A stretch of 20,000 nucleotides of DNA from an uncultured virus (IMG/VR IMGVR_UViG_3300037313_000338) (IMGVR_UViG_3300037313_000338); one strand, 5' to 3'; positions 2,647-16,305 are shown, counted from the stretch's first letter. Notes: generated by a model not told the origin, from the letters alone. Made by a program: numbers and translations.

Positions 2647-3120
<474 letters not shown>

Positions 3121-3326: not shown

Positions 3327-3331
3327 AAGTT

Positions 3332-3364
3332 AGGCCCTAGTATTTCGGTACTAGGGCCTTTCTT
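3332..3364 (+). terminator. Intrinsic terminator with a UUCG loop
   Basis: AGGCCCTAGTA (3332-3342), loop tTTCGg, TACTAGGGCCT (3349-3359), then TTCTT. Confidence 0.8.
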
Positions 3365-3389: not shown

Positions 3390-5738
3390 ATGCCTATTTC
3401 GCTAAAAAAGCCATGGGGCGATTACATCTGCCCGACCGACAATTTTTATATGCTGCGCCCGGCAGGTATGGGCGGTAGCCCTAAGCGATACAAGCATAGG
3501 CTACTGGTCGTGTACGACCGCCCGTTCCACAACGATACGGAAGTGGGTGAACTTCACAGTTATAAAGCGGGCACAACCATGCTCGCGAATACACCCGAAT
3601 GGCGCAAGCCTACTATGCCTTCCGAGACCATTGACCGGTTACTTCATGTGGCTGGTTACGAGAAGTGGGATAAGGTTGCTGTCGGGTGGCAATTCCACGA
3701 CCTAGAAGACTTGACGGATGATTTAGTAGAACGCGCCTTCCAAGCATTTGACAAACGTCTGACGTACTACATCAAAAAGTTGGAACCTACCGCGATCCTA
3801 TTCATGGGAGACGCGCCGTTAGTAAACTACGCCAAACGCAAGGGTAAACGCGTGCCTGTTGGGCGCGTGTTTAAGTACAAGGGCGTTGACGCGATCTGGA
3901 CGGTTCCAGCGGCTCCGCTTTGCGTACCTGATCCTGGTACGTCTTCGTTATTAGGCCAAGCGATGGATCATGCTGACGCAGTGCGCGTTGGCAAGAACCG
4001 CTACACGGCCCGTAAGCTGGAGCAACCTACCGAAATAGTATACTGCGATACGCTGGATAAGGTTGAAGAGGCTGTTGAAGCCTGTCTTGCGTCACCGCAA
4101 TTCGCGTACGATACGGAAGGCGCAAACCTCAATCGTATCATCAACACGTTATTATCTGTCCAGTTGGCTCCCACTACCGACAAGGCGTACTTCATTCCTT
4201 GCGCGCACGTAGACAGCCCATTCGGCGGCAAGACACTAGACCAAGTTTACGCCAAGCTGCGACGACTGTTTCATACGTACACGGGTACGGTTATTACCGC
4301 GCACGGCAAGTACGATTTGATTATGGCACGCGTGCAACTGAAGGTACCGCATATGCGGTTCAAGTTGTACGACGTTGCGGCGGCTGAATACGCCATCGAC
4401 GAGAACCGGAAATACTACAGCGCAATTATTAGCGCACAGAAGGTTTATCTAAGCGTCGATGGTGAACGCAAGGCTGAGAAAGACCGCGACAAGCACAACA
4501 AGAACAAGTTGTCTGCGTGGGGTCTACAGCGCATCGAAGAGGACTACGGGATAAGCCGAGGCGAAGACATTCTCGGTAAGGACCAACGTACTAACATGTC
4601 GGCAGTGCCGTTGGAACAAATCGTCCCATACGGTATCCTTGACGTTGTGAACCTGTTATTAATCAAGGAACAGCAAGAACGTCTAGCTAAACGACGAGGG
4701 TTCCCCAACTTCCAAGGCTATGTTGAACACCTGGGGTTAATGACTCACGTGTTCGCGAGCATGGAGGTGCGCGGGTTGCCTACAGACGTGCCTGCGCTGA
4801 TTGCGCTACGCAAAGCAGACGGGCCGGTGCGTAAGGCCATTCGCGAAGCCAAAGCGATATTAATGGAAAGCGATGCTGCGAAGCACGCAAACGCCATGTT
4901 ATTGCGGCAGATCGGAGCACCAGCGAAAAGCCTATGGGGCAATCAGACAGCCTGGGTGTTCAATCCAGACAAAGACGAGAGCCAACAAACATTATTCTTC
5001 GGCGTGCTACACCTGAAAGGGTTTGGTATCACGGCGACGGGTAAGAAATCAGTAGGCAAGCAGTTCCTCAAAAATAATGCTGCACACCCTATCGTCGCGG
5101 CGTATGCCGATTACGTAGAAGCTAAGAAGTTCAAGACCGGATTCGTCGACAGCTTTGCCGCTATTATTTCGACCAATCCTGACGCTCGCGCCACACAACG
5201 CATTAGGTCCAGTTACGGCTTCCTGACTGTGTTGACCGGGCGAACGTCGTCTACGGACCCGAACCTTCAGAACCTTCCGGCTCACGGTAAGCTAGCCAAG
5301 CTTATTAAGAAGATTACGAAGGCCGTGTTCGGTTACGGGTTAATCAAACAAGACTTCGGCCAGAACGAAATCCGCGGCTACGCTATTATCTCCAAAGATA
5401 GTGCGTACGCGGCCAAATTCTGGAATAGTATCTTGATGCATAAAGCCTACCGCGTTGCAACTGATCCGGCGAAGATCGATGAGCTTCACAAGGAATGGGA
5501 CACGAAGGGTGACACGCACGTTCAGGCGGTGTGGGACTTCTTCAAGCAACGAGTTAATAAGAAACACGCGTTGAGGCAGGCGGTTAAGGCCGTCATCTTC
5601 GGCGTGCTGTACGGTAAATCGGCTAGGTCGCTAGCTTTGGAACTAGCGTTAGTGGAAATCAAACAGCTTCGCGAGGAACTTAAAGCTCTGCGCGCGGCTA
5701 ATGATAACCAAGACAACGAACGAAAGCGGGCAGCTTGA
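3390..5738 (+). CDS. polA: Family A DNA polymerase, N-terminal part: degenerate UDG-like domain, 3'-5' exonuclease, thumb, motifs A and B
   Basis: ExoI YDTEG, ExoII HGKYD, ExoIII YGILD. TGRTSSTDPNLQNLP, motif A DFGQNEIR (5352-5375), DTH, motif B RQAVKAVIFGVLYG (5574-5615). Motif C is absent. Confidence 0.93.
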   Translation: MPISLKKPWGDYICPTDNFYMLRPAGMGGSPKRYKHRLLVVYDRPFHNDTEVGELHSYKAGTTMLANTPEWRKPTMPSETIDRLLHVAGYEKWDKVAVGWQFHDLEDLTDDLVERAFQAFDKRLTYYIKKLEPTAILFMGDAPLVNYAKRKGKRVPVGRVFKYKGVDAIWTVPAAPLCVPDPGTSSLLGQAMDHADAVRVGKNRYTARKLEQPTEIVYCDTLDKVEEAVEACLASPQFAYDTEGANLNRIINTLLSVQLAPTTDKAYFIPCAHVDSPFGGKTLDQVYAKLRRLFHTYTGTVITAHGKYDLIMARVQLKVPHMRFKLYDVAAAEYAIDENRKYYSAIISAQKVYLSVDGERKAEKDRDKHNKNKLSAWGLQRIEEDYGISRGEDILGKDQRTNMSAVPLEQIVPYGILDVVNLLLIKEQQERLAKRRGFPNFQGYVEHLGLMTHVFASMEVRGLPTDVPALIALRKADGPVRKAIREAKAILMESDAAKHANAMLLRQIGAPAKSLWGNQTAWVFNPDKDESQQTLFFGVLHLKGFGITATGKKSVGKQFLKNNAAHPIVAAYADYVEAKKFKTGFVDSFAAIISTNPDARATQRIRSSYGFLTVLTGRTSSTDPNLQNLPAHGKLAKLIKKITKAVFGYGLIKQDFGQNEIRGYAIISKDSAYAAKFWNSILMHKAYRVATDPAKIDELHKEWDTKGDTHVQAVWDFFKQRVNKKHALRQAVKAVIFGVLYGKSARSLALELALVEIKQLREELKALRAANDNQDNERKRAA

Positions 5739-5781
5739 GTCCATAAATCCAGCTGCATAATGTTTCGGGTCATGTCAAGTG

Positions 5782-5815
5782 CGCCCTCAGTCCGCGTGTT
5801 GGCGGACTGAGGGCG
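5782..5815. other. Perfect 14-bp GC-rich inverted repeat without a U-tract
   Basis: CGCCCTCAGTCCGC (5782-5795), 6-nt loop, GCGGACTGAGGGCG (5802-5815). Confidence 0.85.
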
Positions 5816-5827
5816 ATGTGCTATATT
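5799..5827 (+). promoter_or_regulatory. Candidate sigma70-type promoter for the inserted cassette and the polA C-terminal gene
   Basis: TTGGCG-N17-TATATT with TG just upstream of the -10 (TGcTATATT). It also contains CTATAT, the -10 typical of rhizobial RpoD promoters. Confidence 0.45.
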
Positions 5828-5849
5828 AATCTCACTCGGGGAATGTCAG

Positions 5850-6041
5850 ATGGTTGAAATCATTAAACGCGGTACGCTCAAATACGAAAAGGTCTATGAG
5901 GCGACCTGTAGACAATGCACGACGGAATTCACTTTCAAGCGGCATGAAGCCGCAGAACTCTACGACCCACGTGAGGGAACTGCGTTAGGTATTAATTGTC
6001 CGCTTGCTGGTTGCAATAACGAAGTATGGGTGAACGCGTAA
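5850..6041 (+). CDS. Small Zn-ribbon protein
   Basis: CRQC...CPLAGC, RBS GGGGA, TAATG overlap with the next gene. Confidence 0.75.
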   Translation: MVEIIKRGTLKYEKVYEATCRQCTTEFTFKRHEAAELYDPREGTALGINCPLAGCNNEVWVNA

Positions 6042-6229
6042 TGGCTCGGTTGCTGCCTGTAGTTGATGGACGTGTGACGTACAGAGGGCGACCGCAGCTA
6101 GGTTCTGGTAAAGTTATTAGTATCAACGACAAATGGGTGAACGTCTTGTGGGACGTTAGATTGTCTGACACGCACCGGTACGCTCGCATCAACCACATCG
6201 ACGAACTAGAAGGTCTAGCCGATGACTGA
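6041..6229 (+). CDS. Small hypothetical protein, possibly an SH3/KOW-like beta-barrel
   Basis: ATG at 6041 overlaps the upstream TAA. Pattern GRVTY...GSGKVISI...VNVLWD. Confidence 0.65.
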   Translation: MARLLPVVDGRVTYRGRPQLGSGKVISINDKWVNVLWDVRLSDTHRYARINHIDELEGLADD

Positions 6230-6728
6230 CGATAGTAACAAGTCTGAACAGCCTTTGATCTTCAGCAGTGACATTGGGTTTACGACAACGAAAACTGCCG
6301 CTAGCGAAATTCGCGAGGCTTTGACTGACGTACTAACTCGTTGTGTGAAAGACGGCGTAGCTCCAGCACATATCGCTTATGATATCGAGCAAGCGTTTCT
6401 CATGCATTTCGGCGTGAATCTTACTAAAGTTGTCGAAGCCCAACGTGGCTTTGAACAACCTCCGGTGATGGGCGCGTCTGATATACTGGAAGCTGCTATA
6501 GCTGGAATACGGTTGCGGCTCGGTAAGAGACTTGGTTCTCATAGTGATTCAATCGTCGGTCCCGGCGTTGCGCCTAACTGTGGCTTCTCCGTTACGTCGC
6601 TTGACGATCCAGATGACTGGACGCGTTACGAACTGACGGTGAAAGAAAACAAACCCACCGAAAAATATAAAGAGTCCATCCGCCGTAGCGTGAACGCCAT
6701 TATGGAGAAAGCTTCCAGCAATGAGTAG
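6222..6728 (+). CDS. Hypothetical protein (168 aa)
   Basis: Overlaps both neighbours by 8 nt, RBS AAGG, no recognisable motif. Confidence 0.7.
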   Translation: MTDDSNKSEQPLIFSSDIGFTTTKTAASEIREALTDVLTRCVKDGVAPAHIAYDIEQAFLMHFGVNLTKVVEAQRGFEQPPVMGASDILEAAIAGIRLRLGKRLGSHSDSIVGPGVAPNCGFSVTSLDDPDDWTRYELTVKENKPTEKYKESIRRSVNAIMEKASSNE

Positions 6729-7605
6729 ACGCGAGCGGGAGATTACTAATCGTATCGACCTACTTGAGCGCGACCCACAAGGCGCTAAGCTACAAGAGGC
6801 CGAAGATACTATTAACAAGTTCTTTGAGAAATACCCCGATGGCGCACGATGGATCGAGGCGACGCACAAAAGCGGCAGAGAAGAGTTCTTTGCACCCAAT
6901 CTTTTTGGAGGCCGCCGCCACCTGTATGGTTATATTAGCGCTAACACTGGCGTCCACTCGGCGATGGATCGAAGAGGGCCAAACTCTCTCATCCAAGGTC
7001 CGCTCTCTCAAGTCGGATACGTCGCAGTCTACAGCCTCGAACAGTGGCTCGACGATCTCTCCAACGAAACCAACCTACCATTAATAGAACACATGGGTGT
7101 GTTCAACATGGTGCACGACTCACAGGAAATGGAAGCCCCTATCCTGTTGATGCCGTTAGCAAGTTACATGTTGGAGCACGCCTGTACGACACGGGTGGTG
7201 GAATACTTTAATAAATATCAAGTCGCTCAGAACTATAAGTTGTCGGTCCACGAAAAGTCCGGCAAACAAGTTGGCATTCCGCTGAACGTGGAATTCGAAG
7301 TCGACCAAGAAATCGGCCTGAACCTGGGCGAAACTAATAAGTACGACGGCCACCGCCGTTCAATGCTCTCCAGCATGTTGCCGATGGCTCGTTCCAAGCG
7401 AGAACGTAGGCAGTTAACCGCTAACATCGAATTAGTGATGGGCTTGCGGGAGAAAGAAATTCGCCGTGACCTGAAGTCATACAAAAATAGCAACGACAAC
7501 AAAGAAGCGTTGATACCGTCTACTCGTTGTTTACTAACGGCAAAGCACGTCTTAGAAATGTACTTGCCTGAGGAAGTGAAACCGAAAAAGCGGCATCAGG
7601 TGTAA
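6721..7605 (+). CDS. polA: Family A DNA polymerase, C-terminal part (distal fingers and palm motif C)
   Basis: EAEDTINKFFEKYP, NLFGGRRHL, RRGPNSLIQG and motif C NMVHDS (7111-7122) continue the PolA fold where the upstream gene stops. Confidence 0.92.
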   Translation: MSRREREITNRIDLLERDPQGAKLQEAEDTINKFFEKYPDGARWIEATHKSGREEFFAPNLFGGRRHLYGYISANTGVHSAMDRRGPNSLIQGPLSQVGYVAVYSLEQWLDDLSNETNLPLIEHMGVFNMVHDSQEMEAPILLMPLASYMLEHACTTRVVEYFNKYQVAQNYKLSVHEKSGKQVGIPLNVEFEVDQEIGLNLGETNKYDGHRRSMLSSMLPMARSKRERRQLTANIELVMGLREKEIRRDLKSYKNSNDNKEALIPSTRCLLTAKHVLEMYLPEEVKPKKRHQV

Positions 7606-9039: not shown

Positions 9040-9071
9040 ATTAGATACGAGTGAGCCTTTGGAGAATATTA

Positions 9072-10181
9072 ATGGCGAAGAAATTGGCTGCGGAAGATAC
9101 TAAGACTACCACCAGAGGCCACGATCTTACTAAGCTATTGGCTTTCATGGCGAAAGTTGTCCCTGACGGCGAAGGTATTGTGTTCGCGGACGACGGCAAG
9201 TCGCGCATGACCTTACAAGCCAACTCAGCGGATTCGCAATCTGTTACCGCGATACTGCCTACCGGAGGCAGAGTTATTAAGCCAGTGATGCTGCGTCGGC
9301 ATGATTTCTTGAAAGCCTATCGTAAGGAAGCTTTTCTCAGCGGTACGGACGGCAAACTTCAAATGTCTGCGGGGCATTGGAAGCTCGCACTGGCGGGATC
9401 GGTAGAGGCCAACACGCCAGAACCCTTCGTCGTGGAAGGTAAGAAGTTAGTAGCGGATGTGGGTCCGCTCAAGTCGATCCAGACTGAAGACAGTTACGGA
9501 GGTTCGACGTGGGCGATCTTCCTACCTAACGGACTCGCGGCGGTGGTTTCTACTTACTCCATGGTCTGCGTGATCATGGATTCCGAAGTTTGGCCGTCTA
9601 AGCCTGTCACGATGCAGGCCAACGCTATCTATCCGTTATTAAATCTTGTGGAACCTGTGCTGACTGTTGGCGCTGACGTGGTTGGCGTAACCGGCAAGTT
9701 CCCCTGCGGTAATAACGTTGATGCTCAAGTGCATATCGCGCTAGCCAAGCCGACAATCGATCCGCCATCTGCGGAACAGATTGAGCAAATGGTTCCTACT
9801 AAAAAGCATCGCCTGTCGGTTCCGTCACAAGAACTACGTATCTGTATCGAAGGCGCAAAGAAGACCTTCGAAGACGAAGCTACTAACCTAACGTTCTCAC
9901 TAGTGGAAACCGGATTGTCTGTAAGCCTGCAATCGCACTCAGCAGCGCTGTCGGAAGTAATTCCATATGTGAAGCGTCCTGAAAAAGCTAGCGGCAAGCT
10001 GGTTATTAATACTGACGTAGCAGTAAACGCGTTCAAGAGCATCAAGGAACTGACTAGTAGTGACGCAATTGCGTGTATTCGTTGGGATGAAACGGCGGTG
10101 TACATTCGTATCGTTCACGCTAAAGAGGTACTCGAAGGCAAGTTAATCGGCGCTATCGTAATCGCAGCTTCGGAAGAGTAG
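9072..10181 (+). CDS. Divergent DNA sliding clamp (Pol III beta-like), 369 aa
   Basis: ATG 9072 has a GGAG RBS and the length is close to bacterial beta. The C-terminal third (LSVPSQELRICIE...LTFSLVETGLSVSLQS...SEVIPY...LVINTDVAVNAFKSI...IRW) follows the beta-clamp domain III pattern. Replication-module context. Confidence 0.6.
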   Translation: MAKKLAAEDTKTTTRGHDLTKLLAFMAKVVPDGEGIVFADDGKSRMTLQANSADSQSVTAILPTGGRVIKPVMLRRHDFLKAYRKEAFLSGTDGKLQMSAGHWKLALAGSVEANTPEPFVVEGKKLVADVGPLKSIQTEDSYGGSTWAIFLPNGLAAVVSTYSMVCVIMDSEVWPSKPVTMQANAIYPLLNLVEPVLTVGADVVGVTGKFPCGNNVDAQVHIALAKPTIDPPSAEQIEQMVPTKKHRLSVPSQELRICIEGAKKTFEDEATNLTFSLVETGLSVSLQSHSAALSEVIPYVKRPEKASGKLVINTDVAVNAFKSIKELTSSDAIACIRWDETAVYIRIVHAKEVLEGKLIGAIVIAASEE

Positions 10182-16268: not shown

Positions 16269-16305
16269 AAAACCCCGTAGCGCTAGCGCTACGGGGTTTT
16301 TCTTT
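16269..16305 (+). terminator. Intrinsic terminator (perfect 32-bp palindrome, possibly bidirectional)
   Basis: AAAACCCCGTAGCGCT/AGCGCTACGGGGTTTT (16269-16300), followed by TCTTT. Confidence 0.88.

What the first reader, a model, noticed from the sequence alone, without database searches (positions are those of the whole stretch)
5646..6792. Complementary coiled-coil-like extensions at both cut ends may zip the polymerase halves together
Seen: typical PolA runs YG...L...L-(short turn)-EA...I..YF..YP. Here the N-half adds about 30 aa (ALVEIKQLREELKALRAANDNQDNERKRAA, 5646-5735) and the C-half begins with about 24 extra aa (MSRREREITNRIDLLERDPQGAKL, 6721-6792). Both have 3/4 hydrophobic spacing and charged flanks. 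Inference: an ancestral helical-hairpin insertion was broken at its tip and now acts as an antiparallel dimerisation module, which would explain why the split is tolerated. It would also mark a usable split site for engineering.
Basis: partly seen in the sequence, partly recalled or inferred. Interest (0 to 1): 0.72.

Follow-up and report, generated by a model that had tools for sequence, protein, structure and literature searches.

The report
Phage polymerase split at fingertip hairpin
An uncultured large phage encodes its DNA polymerase I as two proteins cut at the tip of the fingers, and the short helical pieces on both cut ends look like the two arms of a helical hairpin that many uncut relatives carry at that same spot.

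Summary
A family A DNA polymerase is split into a 782-aa gene (3390-5738) and a 294-aa gene (6721-7605), with three small ORFs between them. Pfam places the break exactly (profile 231|232). That leaves 29 extra residues on the N-half and 21 on the C-half.

Both extensions are as conserved as the catalytic core in the closest split relatives: 5 N-halves and 8 C-halves.

The hairpin reading is supported at family level:
- Of 120 relatives continuous across this site, 32 carry a 19-73 aa helix-loop-helix-looking insertion there.
- 19 further split representatives carry 25-49 aa heads.
- In 5 of 7 sister pairs the head aligns significantly with the second arm of the sister's intact insertion.

For this lineage it remains an inference, because the nearest unsplit relatives (P0017, P0010, L004) have no insertion.

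Contact between the two extensions is not shown. The one complex job gave no answer, the single-chain folds are low confidence, and amphipathicity is no better than in shuffled sequences. It is also doubtful that a zipper is why the split is tolerated, since a Pfu polymerase split at the fingertip works without one.

The scan found the same phenomenon before on other DNA (e1-5773860), in an independently split lineage.

The parts
3390..5738 (+). PolA N-half gene (782 aa): N-terminal region, 3'-5' exonuclease, thumb, and fingers up to helix O1, with motifs A and B
   Evidence: ORF. Pfam PF01612 at residues 218-424 and PF00476 at 524-753, matching profile 30-231. phrog_17 DNA polymerase.
5346..5378 (+). 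Motif A region (residues 653-663, KQDFGQNEIRG), which carries one catalytic Asp
   Evidence: Position. Naming it motif A rests on recalled knowledge of PolA motifs plus the alignment to unsplit relatives.
5571..5615 (+). Motif B / O-helix region (residues 728-742, LRQAVKAVIFGVLYG)
   Evidence: invariant in 6 of 6 split N-halves.
5649..5735 (+). N-half C-terminal extension (residues 754-782). Residues 754-773 are conserved and helix-like; 774-782 are a variable polar end.
   Evidence: Lies outside the Pfam match. Residues 753-773 are 85% identical across 5 relatives, against 74% for the whole N-half; residues 774-782 are 53% identical. AF2 draws one helix over 745-769 at pLDDT about 45-51, which is low confidence.
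5782..5815 (+). Perfect 14-bp stem with a 6-nt loop, 44 nt after the N-half stop codon
   Evidence: No T-run follows, so it is not a canonical intrinsic terminator.
5799..5827 (+). Sigma-70-like promoter match (TTGGCG, 17-nt spacer, TG, TATATT) overlapping the 3' arm of the stem, 23 nt before ORF1
   Evidence: One site found against 1.5 expected, so this is a consensus match only.
5850..6041 (+). Gap ORF1, 63 aa with CxxC...CxxxC, family phrog_2834 (unknown function)
   Evidence: A 50%-identical homologue sits in Burkholderia phage BcepSauron among small hypothetical genes; no polymerase is annotated in the 14-kb stretch fetched around it.
6026..6229 (+). Gap ORF2, 67 aa, no family match
6222..6728 (+). 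Gap ORF3, 168 aa, an orphan; its stop overlaps the C-half start by 8 nt
   Evidence: No Pfam or PHROG match, no phage tblastn match, and only itself found among 5.8 billion proteins.
6721..7605 (+). PolA C-half gene (294 aa): helix O2 onward, palm motif C, and a helical C-terminal region
   Evidence: ORF. PF00476 at residues 22-137, matching profile 232-339. Residues 24-114 align to Taq Pol I 686-776. A GGAG lies 13-14 nt before the ATG.
6721..6783 (+). C-half N-terminal extension (residues 1-21: MSRREREITNRIDLLERDPQG)
   Evidence: Lies outside the Pfam and PDB matches. R4, R6, E7, I8, R11, E16, R17, D18 and P19 are invariant in 9 of 9 sequences. It is 74% identical against 70% for the whole C-half. 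AF2 gives a helix at 3-14, a loop, then a helix at 22-37, at pLDDT about 60.
7108..7128 (+). Motif C region (residues 130-136, MVHDSQE), which carries the second catalytic Asp
   Evidence: Position. H132, D133, S134, Q135 and E136 are invariant in 9 of 9. The motif name is recalled.

Best explanation
The only DNA polymerase visible in this window is a UDG/exo-PolA-type enzyme of an uncultured large phage related to PaBG-like jumbo phages. It is made as two proteins that must assemble non-covalently. Motifs A and B lie on the 782-aa N-half and motif C on the 294-aa C-half. The cut lies in the turn between fingers helices O1 and O2, at about Taq residues 683-685. The 29-aa tail and 21-aa head are most likely the two arms of a 'fingertip' helix-loop-helix hairpin, a surface projection that many unsplit relatives carry intact at this site. 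The tail helix continues O1 outward. The head helix runs back, ends in a conserved RDPxG break, and leads into O2. The two arms probably still pack antiparallel against each other, adding a small local clasp to the large native interface between the halves. The hairpin tip is foremost a permissive place where foreign genes can be inserted without harming the fold; any clasp role is secondary. Shown here: the split, its exact site, conservation of both extensions, intact hairpins in relatives, and repeated independent splitting at the same site. Inferred: that this lineage passed through an intact-hairpin stage, that the arms touch, and that they contribute to assembly.
For: - Exact break: Pfam profile 231|232, with catalytic motifs on both halves.
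- Conservation: tail helix 753-773 is 85% identical against 74% for the N-half (75th percentile of equal-length windows); head 1-21 is 74% against 70% (51st percentile). Hydrophobic positions change only conservatively (I757 to A/V, L767 to I, I12 to L, L15 to I), whereas positions 9, 10, 13, 765 and 766 vary freely.
- The gap content is not conserved while the extensions are. ORF3 has no relative anywhere, and the gap ORFs of the second split lineage are unrelated (best E = 4).
- Census of 156 relatives: 85 continuous with no insertion; 32 continuous with a 19-73 aa insertion at this site; 3 with 322-502 aa extra, all with intein Pfam matches; 31 C-half-like; 3 other; 2 unaligned.
- The insertions read as helix / polar loop / helix. 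Tail plus head here is 50 aa, against an insertion median of 41.
- In 5 of 7 sister pairs of split and insertion-bearing proteins, the head aligns to the C-terminal arm of the intact insertion (z 4.7-9.6; 0-1 of 300 shuffles as high). The other 2 of 7 do not (z -0.1 and 0.8).
- Independent recurrence: a second lineage verified at DNA level (L012) is cut at the same turn, with a 38-aa tail, a 59-aa head and four different gap ORFs. The AU test rejects one clade for the two lineages (delta lnL 176.9, p 2e-44).
- Weak hint of co-variation in 5 pairs presumed to share a contig: tail 757 I with head 12 I (2 pairs), A or V with L (3 pairs). This fits a single event on one branch.
- Low-confidence folds give helices at 745-769 and at 3-14.
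Against: - The three nearest proteins continuous across the site (P0017, P0010, L004) have no insertion.
- This lineage's tail and head show no convincing similarity to any of the 32 insertions or 19 heads. The best of 102 comparisons is z 5.2, and it aligns to the wrong arm.
- Amphipathicity is not above that of shuffled sequences.
- No structural computation here shows the arms in contact; both single-chain models are poor (mean pLDDT 60 and 48).
[quoted passage not shown] The termini of the T7-like exo/pol split are described as 'simply exposed to the solvent' (PMC10201439, passages read).
- Intact hairpins exist in unsplit enzymes, so the hairpin must have, or have had, a role or neutrality unrelated to holding halves together.
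- Outside the window and L012, 'split' status is judged from protein length and start position only. No DNA was seen for those representatives.
Confidence: 0.6

Rival explanations
1. The extensions are hairpin arms whose selected function has nothing to do with joining the halves. The fingertip projection instead contacts the template or downstream DNA, or a replisome partner such as the helicase, clamp or SSB encoded in the same module. The split merely happens to pass through it.
For: The same kind of insertion sits in 32 of 120 relatives that are continuous across the site and need no clasp. The window is a replication module with SSB, a UvsX-like recombinase, and UvsW-type and DnaB-like helicases. 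In PolA the O1 region lies next to the template strand (recalled, not tested here). Czernecki et al. propose that such appendices affect processivity, dynamics or partner binding (PMC10201439, passage read).
Against: 85 of 120 continuous relatives, including every cultured phage checked, lack any insertion, so the projection is dispensable for the core enzyme. Insertion sequences differ widely between clades, which argues against a conserved partner surface. This rival does not exclude arm-to-arm packing.
Confidence: 0.22
2. The extensions are neutral by-products of the insertion event. The N-half simply reads on into inserted DNA until the first stop, and the C-half starts at the first usable ATG. 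Neither piece has any function.
For: The last 9 residues of the tail are variable (53% identity). This lineage's nearest unsplit relatives have no insertion. The tail and head resemble no other lineage's hairpin.
Against: Residues 753-773 and 1-21 are as conserved as the catalytic domain, or more so, across relatives whose C-halves are only 63-75% identical overall. The gene content of the gap is not conserved. The same two-sided helical pattern recurs in an independent lineage and in 19 further heads.
Confidence: 0.08
3. The halves are rejoined covalently or read through by a split intein, a self-splicing intron or a translational bypass, so the enzyme is not really two proteins.
For: Inteins are common in this family. 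P0133, P0180, P0217 and P0265 have Intein_splicing matches, and two relatives begin with a stretch that ends like an intein C-terminus.
Against: No intein family matches either half. The tail is 29 aa and the head 21 aa, far too short for intein halves, and the junction residues are ...KRAA-stop and MSRRE.... No Rfam family matches at E<=1 in 5400-7000. The gap is 982 nt, holds three tightly packed ORFs, and the two halves are in different frames. Five relatives end, and eight begin, at the same residues as separate proteins.
Confidence: 0.02
4. The N-half tail is a regulatory or degradation tag rather than an assembly element. The conserved RAANDN...AA-COOH end would expose unassembled N-half to a host protease, and pairing with the C-half would hide it.
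For: AANDN is nearly invariant and 5 of 6 tails end in AA. The resemblance to the bacterial ssrA tag is recalled, not tested. Several unsplit relatives also end in -xAA (P0017, P0023, P0026, PaBG).
Against: No test was made. The resemblance covers a handful of residues. The host is unknown.
Confidence: 0.03

Closest known systems
Fingertip-split family B polymerases gp43A/gp43B of T4-like phages (Petrov et al., as summarised in PMC3061061), and the engineered split Pfu PolB
   Same: An essential replicative polymerase is cut at the tip of the fingers into two genes, 2 bp to 3 kb apart. Intercistronic content varies and the enzyme assembles non-covalently. The fingertip is variable in length and is described as a hotspot for DNA insertion (PMC3061061, passages read).
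   Different: The polymerase family and fold of the fingers differ (B, not A). Pfu needs no added residues. No paired helical extensions are described in the passages I read.
Aeromonas phage Aeh1 NrdA-a / mobE / NrdA-b (Crona et al. 2011, PMC3045599)
   Same: [quoted passage not shown] The tails were shown to be essential and to act as protein interaction domains (abstract read).
   Different: In Aeh1 a homing endonuclease gene sits in the gap and the tails arose with its insertion. Here no endonuclease is detectable in the gap, and the family evidence points to a pre-existing hairpin. The Aeh1 tails are not needed for the a/b heterodimer but for higher assembly (section headings in the outline).
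Engineered T7 RNA polymerase split at residue 601 with antiparallel SynZIP 17/18 (Segall-Shapiro et al. 2014, PMC4299498)
   Same: A single-subunit right-hand polymerase is cut in two, with antiparallel coiled-coil pieces on both cut ends. Adding both raised activity more than tenfold at low expression (passages read).
   Different: It is man-made, an RNA polymerase, cut at a different site, and uses long designed zippers. Here each helix is only about 12-20 residues.
Other natural PolA splits: the exo/pol split of T7-like cyanophages (Czernecki et al. 2023, PMC10201439) and LUZ24-like 'DNA polymerase part I/II' (PMC3890496)
   Same: Phage family A polymerase is encoded by two genes. In LUZ24-likes many small ORFs lie between them (gene table read).
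   Different: Those cuts fall between the exonuclease and polymerase domains, not inside the polymerase active-site domain. In the T7-like case the new termini are reported as simply solvent-exposed.
Unsplit PolA of PaBG-like and related jumbo phages (PaBG_00205, JA13_161, Motura QDH83419, RHph_N46 QXV73938), and metagenomic relatives with an intact fingertip insertion (e.g. P0153, P0179, P0221, P0022)
   Same: Same polymerase family, with 24-43% identity over the C-half. PaBG and JA13 share the gene order, with a clamp-like gene and a UvsW-type helicase downstream.
   Different: They are single polypeptides. The cultured ones have no insertion at O1-O2.
Earlier finding of this scan, e1-5773860 (another genome)
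   Same: A family A polymerase split in the fingers, with helical extensions on both ends and a 2.1-kb gap. The earlier agent read it as a cut at the tip of a helical hairpin that recurs in many related phages.
   Different: That is lineage B (P0024/L012-like; 80 of 110 words shared). The present window belongs to a separately split lineage with unrelated tail, head and gap genes.

Membership tests
Family A DNA polymerase (Pfam PF00476) | Significant match to the family profile above the gathering score | tested here: met
   N-half 92.6 bits and C-half 38.9 bits, against a cut-off of 34.3. The two matches abut at profile positions 231/232.
Family A DNA polymerase (Pfam PF00476) | Catalytic motifs A, B and C present | tested here: met
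   DFGQNEIR (655-662) and KAVIFGVLYG (733-742) lie on the N-half; VHDSQE (131-136) lies on the C-half. All are invariant in the split relatives. The motif definitions are recalled.
Family A DNA polymerase (Pfam PF00476) | DNA polymerase activity of the assembled protein | not testable with these tools
   Needs expression of both halves and a primer-extension assay.
Split intein (trans-splicing) | An N-intein of about 100 aa starting with Cys/Ser after the N-extein, and a C-intein ending in His-Asn followed by Cys/Ser/Thr | tested here: not met
   The tail is 29 aa ending KRAA and the head begins MSRRE. No intein Pfam match at E<=0.1 in either half.
Group I/II intron or other curated RNA element in the gap | Match to an Rfam covariance model | tested here: not met
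   0 matches at E<=1 over 5400-7000, both strands.
Homing-endonuclease-mediated gene fragmentation with element-derived tails (Aeh1 nrdA/mobE type) | An endonuclease gene lies between the two halves | tested here: not met
   The three gap ORFs have no HNH, GIY-YIG, LAGLIDADG or other nuclease match in Pfam or PHROGs.
Homing-endonuclease-mediated gene fragmentation with element-derived tails (Aeh1 nrdA/mobE type) | The tails are required for activity or assembly | not testable with these tools
   Needs deletion mutants.
Two-stranded antiparallel coiled coil / helical hairpin | Both segments are helical | tested here: inconclusive
   AF2 draws helices at 745-769 and 3-14, but at pLDDT about 45-60 from alignments of 6 and 9 rows.
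Two-stranded antiparallel coiled coil / helical hairpin | Heptad-type amphipathic pattern beyond chance | tested here: not met
   The hydrophobic moment is not above that of shuffled sequences (52% and 13% of shuffles as high). Each segment spans only about two heptads, and no coiled-coil predictor was available.
Two-stranded antiparallel coiled coil / helical hairpin | The two segments contact each other | tested here: inconclusive
   No computation here gave contacts. The inference rests on homology of other lineages' heads to arms of intact, short-looped insertions.
Fingertip hairpin insertion of this PolA clade (defined here) | Extra residues located between O1 and O2, of total length within the 19-73 aa seen in intact forms | tested here: met
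   29 + 21 = 50 aa at the same alignment position.
Fingertip hairpin insertion of this PolA clade (defined here) | Sequence homology of tail or head to an intact insertion | tested here: not met
   The best of 102 comparisons is z 5.2, to the wrong arm. The nearest unsplit relatives carry no insertion.

The most novel reading that the evidence does not exclude
The fingertip hairpin of this phage PolA clade is a naturally evolved, self-complementing 'breakable joint'. Its tip has been cut open by inserted genes many times independently (about 20 changes of state on the tree), and perhaps closed again. The two arms suffice to re-dock the halves. In this phage the halves lie on separate transcription units (a stem-loop and a promoter-like site follow the N-half), so assembly of the replicase could be timed or titrated through C-half expression together with the gap genes. 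If true, this gives a portable, nature-tested split site plus clasp for family A polymerases such as Taq, Bst and Klenow.
Probability: 0.25. Interest if true: 0.72.

Novelty: new variant of a known kind. Interest (0 to 1): 0.55.

Why it matters
Splitting an essential polymerase inside its active-site domain, with motifs A and B on one protein and motif C on the other, is rare.

Three full-text searches and passages of the 2023 PolA reclassification paper turned up only exo/pol domain splits for family A. [quoted passage not shown]

Here the cut recurs at one surface hairpin in at least two lineages verified at DNA level, and apparently in about twenty more cluster representatives. Intact-hairpin relatives stand alongside them.

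The result is a natural series (no hairpin, hairpin, broken hairpin) for studying how essential genes survive invasion by foreign DNA. It also marks a concrete candidate split site, the O1-O2 turn at about Taq 683-686, for two-piece family A polymerases.

The phenomenon itself was already met once in this scan, and the clasp function remains untested.

Tried and rejected
- Complex prediction: C-half residues 1-40 (alignment A3, 9 rows) with N-half residues 750-782 (alignment A2, 6 rows). ipSAE was 0.03 in both runs against a mark of 0.32, controls were not run, and the tool's verdict was 'no answer'. This counts neither for nor against binding. I sent only the extensions because whole halves of a split gene would be expected to pass by likeness to solved PolA structures.
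- Single-chain AF2 of both halves: mean pLDDT 60 and 48. These are usable only for a rough secondary-structure reading.
- Hydrophobic-moment test: not significant for any extension, including those of lineage B and of the P0022 insertion.
- DNA of the close split relatives could not be obtained. Megablast against phages found nothing. Scans of viral contigs, metagenome contigs and genome contigs gave only distant, mostly unsplit loci. So gap content and dN/dS within the lineage could not be examined directly.
- No whole genome is held for the window.
- Intron, intein and bypass readings are rejected (see rivals).
- An apparent similarity between the N-half tail and the C-terminal region of the window's own C-half, seen in a MAFFT alignment, is not conserved in relatives. 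I dropped it as chance.
- Similarity of lineage B's tail and head to the insertion of its sister clade (P0022, P0026): z 0.9-2.7, not convincing.
- A crude regex census failed for 114 of 150 proteins. It was replaced by the phmmer-based census.

Full report
**What is there.**
All sizeable ORFs in the window lie on the + strand and form a phage replication module. It encodes an SSB, a UvsX-like recombinase, a dNMP phosphatase, a MazG-like enzyme, a sigma factor, a UvsW-type helicase and a DnaB-like helicase.

Inside this module a family A DNA polymerase is encoded by two ORFs: 3390-5738 (782 aa) and 6721-7605 (294 aa). Pfam DNA_pol_A matches N-half residues 524-753 to profile positions 30-231, and C-half residues 22-137 to positions 232-339. 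The two matches abut exactly. That leaves 29 residues (754-782) and 21 residues (1-21) outside the family profile.

Motif A (DFGQNEIR) and motif B (KAVIFGVLYG) lie on the N-half and motif C (VHDSQE) on the C-half. Neither protein can be a polymerase alone.

Against solved structures the C-half aligns from residue 24, which is Taq Pol I residue 686. None of the 53 chains listed covers residues 1-23. By recalled helix nomenclature the cut lies in the turn between fingers helices O1 and O2.

**The gap.**
The 982 nt between the halves hold several features:
- A perfect 14-bp stem-loop at 5782-5815. It has no T-run, so it is not a canonical terminator.
- A sigma-70-like match at 5799-5827. This is one site against 1.5 expected, so it is only a consensus match.
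- Three tightly packed ORFs: 5850-6041, 6026-6229 and 6222-6728. The last overlaps the C-half start by 8 nt.

ORF1 belongs to phrog_2834, of unknown function. It has a 50%-identical homologue in Burkholderia phage BcepSauron, among small hypothetical genes with no polymerase annotated in the 14-kb stretch fetched. ORF2 has no match. ORF3 has no relative at all: none in phages, and only itself among 5.8 billion proteins.

No nuclease, intein or intron signature is present.

**Relatives.**
There is no near DNA match in the phage collection. By protein, 107 phage records match the C-half, all below 60% identity. In all 40 listed rows the match starts at residue 21 or later.

Six cultured relatives have single polymerase genes of 1018-1057 aa. 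These are Dickeya JA13, Pseudomonas PaBG, Vibrio GR7B, Erwinia pEa_SNUABM_17, Achromobacter Motura and Rhizobium RHph_N46. For the five whose junction could be located (RHph_N46 could not), it reads straight through with no extra residues.

In the large protein collection I found eight other C-halves (273-298 aa, 63-74% identical) and five other N-halves (778-783 aa, 77-85% identical in the region searched). All end or begin at the same residues.

**Conservation of the extensions.**

| Segment | Identity across relatives | Whole half | Percentile of equal-length windows |
|---|---|---|---|
| Tail helix part, 753-773 | 85% | 74% (N-half) | 75th |
| Last nine tail residues, 774-782 | 53% | 74% (N-half) | not computed |
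| Head, 1-21 | 74% | 70% (C-half) | 51st |

Invariant positions include L754, V755, E756, K758, Q759, L760, R761, E763, L764 and N771-D772-N773 in 6 of 6 tails. In 9 of 9 heads they include R4, R6, E7, I8, R11, E16, R17, D18 and P19.

So the extensions are under selection comparable to the core. By contrast, at least the largest gap gene is not shared by the relatives, within the limits of a word-seeded search.

**Helical and amphipathic character.**
However, the helical hydrophobic moment is not above that of shuffled sequences: tail 0.71 against 0.77+-0.39, head 1.22 against 0.77+-0.38. Net charges are +1 and 0, so they are not complementary.

AF2 single-chain models are poor (mean pLDDT 60 and 48). 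They draw a helix at 745-769 that runs from O1 into the tail, a helix at 3-14 in the head, a break at 15-21, and then helix 22-37.

The single complex job, restricted to the two extensions, returned 'no answer'. I draw nothing from it.

**The family picture.**
An exhaustive HMMER search with the C-half gave 372 hits at E<=1e-3, of which the best 150 cluster representatives were listed. I placed those 150 plus six proteins from then on the junction with two local phmmer queries.

| Class | Count (of 156) |
|---|---|
| Continuous across the site, at most 12 extra residues | 85 |
| Continuous, with 19-73 extra residues (median 41) | 32 |
| Continuous, with 322-502 extra residues | 3 |
| C-half-like, starting shortly before O2 | 31 |
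| Other | 3 |
| Unaligned | 2 |

- 'Continuous' means across this site only; some of these proteins are fragments or are cut elsewhere.
- The three large insertions all have intein Pfam matches.
- The 32 medium insertions read as helix / polar loop / helix.
- Of the 31 C-half-like proteins, 19 lie outside this lineage, are longer than 240 aa and have heads of 25-49 aa (median 35). Three belong to this lineage, two have 11-aa heads, and the rest are short fragments.

**Heads compared with intact insertions.**
I built a FastTree tree of the part after O2 with 148 rows. I dropped rows with fewer than 180 residues after O2, C-half-like rows with heads under 10 aa, and the 'other' class. On this tree, seven split representatives are sister to insertion-bearing continuous ones.

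In five of those seven pairs the head aligns with the C-terminal arm of the sister's insertion, at z 4.7-9.6 with 0-1 of 300 shuffles as high. In two pairs it does not (z -0.1 and 0.8). For those five lineages, 'an intact hairpin broken near its tip' is directly supported.

The split state needs 22 changes on this tree. That tree is weakly resolved and cannot tell gains from losses, so I take it only as 'many times'.

**A second lineage verified at DNA level.**
L012 is a 177.8-kb IMG/VR contig. It has an N-half ending in a 38-aa tail, four unrelated ORFs in a 2.1-kb gap, and a 302-aa C-half with a 59-aa head, cut at the same turn.

On a 30-row IQ-TREE tree of the N-part, the window's lineage is sister to unsplit P0017 + L004 (SH-aLRT 100). 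L012's lineage sits in another supported clade with Motura, P0020, P0022 and P0026. Forcing the two split lineages into one clade costs 176.9 log-likelihood units (AU p 2e-44).

This second lineage is the one already reported by the scan as e1-5773860.

**What this means for the window.**
Tail plus head is 50 aa, within the range of intact insertions, at the same position and with the same architecture: a helix continuing O1, a polar end, a helix, an [R/K]DP-type break, then O2. I read them as the two arms of a fingertip hairpin.

The arms of the intact insertions are joined by a short polar segment, so they probably lie side by side. By this reasoning the two arms here probably still pack antiparallel. 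This step is inferred, not shown.

Three facts keep the claim modest for this lineage:
- Its nearest unsplit relatives (P0017, P0010, L004) carry no insertion.
- Its tail and head resemble no other lineage's hairpin convincingly. The best of 102 comparisons is z 5.2, on the wrong arm.
- The only co-variation hint fits a single branch. It is tail position 757 against head position 12 (I with I in two pairs; A or V with L in three), in 5 pairs assumed from equal contig lengths.

**Does the clasp explain tolerance of the split?**
Probably not by itself, for these reasons:
- An engineered Pfu PolB split at the fingertip, with unchanged sequence, co-purifies 1:1 and behaves like wild type. Natural T4-like gp43 enzymes are also split at the fingertip (PMC3061061, passages read).
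- The termini of the T7-like exo/pol split are reported as solvent-exposed (PMC10201439, passages read).
- In Aeh1 NrdA the tails are essential, yet a section heading states that they are not required for heterodimer formation (PMC3045599, abstract and outline read).
- Pointing the other way, antiparallel SynZIPs at a T7 RNAP split raised activity more than tenfold at low expression (PMC4299498, passages read). A small clasp could therefore matter when the halves are scarce or made from separate transcripts.

My reading is that the hairpin tip is first of all the place where a cut and foreign genes do no harm, and that the retained arms add local stabilisation.

**Novelty.**
Full-text searches for split DNA polymerases in phages, and passages of the PolA reclassification paper, showed only exo/pol domain splits for family A. 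I saw no description of a split inside the fingers or of a helical fingertip hairpin.

I did not read those papers in full or their supplements, and subscription journals are not covered. The scan itself had already found the phenomenon in another lineage.

I therefore rate this a new variant of a known kind: polymerase and other essential phage genes fragmented at tolerant sites, sometimes with interaction tails.

Noticed in passing
window 2647-3120 (+): A 157-aa protein with a roughly 90-residue run of almost pure Asp/Glu flanked by Lys-rich ends (phrog_10064, unknown function), between the UvsX-like gene and the polymerase. The minus strand shows the mirror-image poly-Ser ORF. It may be a DNA mimic or a histone-chaperone-like acidic protein.
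   Followed up: no
window 3327-3364 and 16269-16300: Two further intergenic stem-loops: 16-nt arms at 88% complementarity with a T-rich tail just upstream of the N-half, and a perfect 16-nt palindrome flanked by A4/T4 upstream of the UvsW-type helicase. Together with the stem at 5782-5815 they bracket the N-half gene as if it were its own transcription unit.
   Followed up: partly
window 5715-5735 (N-half residues 769-782): The conserved AANDN motif and the terminal AA of the tail recall the bacterial ssrA degradation tag (from memory). Several unsplit relatives also end in -xAA (P0017, P0023, P0026, PaBG).
   Followed up: no
proteins P0133, P0132 (relatives of the C-half), P0180, P0217, P0265: Inteins are frequent in this polymerase family. 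P0133 (564 aa, 57% identical to the C-half) has an Intein_splicing match. P0180 and P0217 carry intein plus LAGLIDADG inserts near motif B, and P0265 carries an intein. P0132 (636 aa, 70% identical) has an unexplained insert of about 340 aa.
   Followed up: partly
proteins P0140, P0241, P0160, P0212, P0240, P0010: Other relatives start upstream of motif B or at motif A, which suggests further cut sites in the same enzyme. Two of them (P0140, P0241) begin with a stretch ending in VHN followed by C, like the C-terminal end of an intein (motif recalled), so they may be split-intein fragments.
   Followed up: no
window 9051-10181 (+): A 376-aa ORF with no PHROG match sits where PaBG has a gene annotated 'putative DNA polymerase III subunit beta' two genes after its polymerase. 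It may be the sliding clamp of this phage.
   Followed up: no
window 6222-6728 (+): Gap ORF3 (168 aa) is a complete orphan. It has no relative in Pfam, PHROGs, the phage records or 5.8 billion proteins, even though the flanking polymerase halves have relatives at 63-85% identity.
   Followed up: yes
protein P0265 and the window's N-half residues 35-200: [quoted passage not shown]
   Followed up: partly
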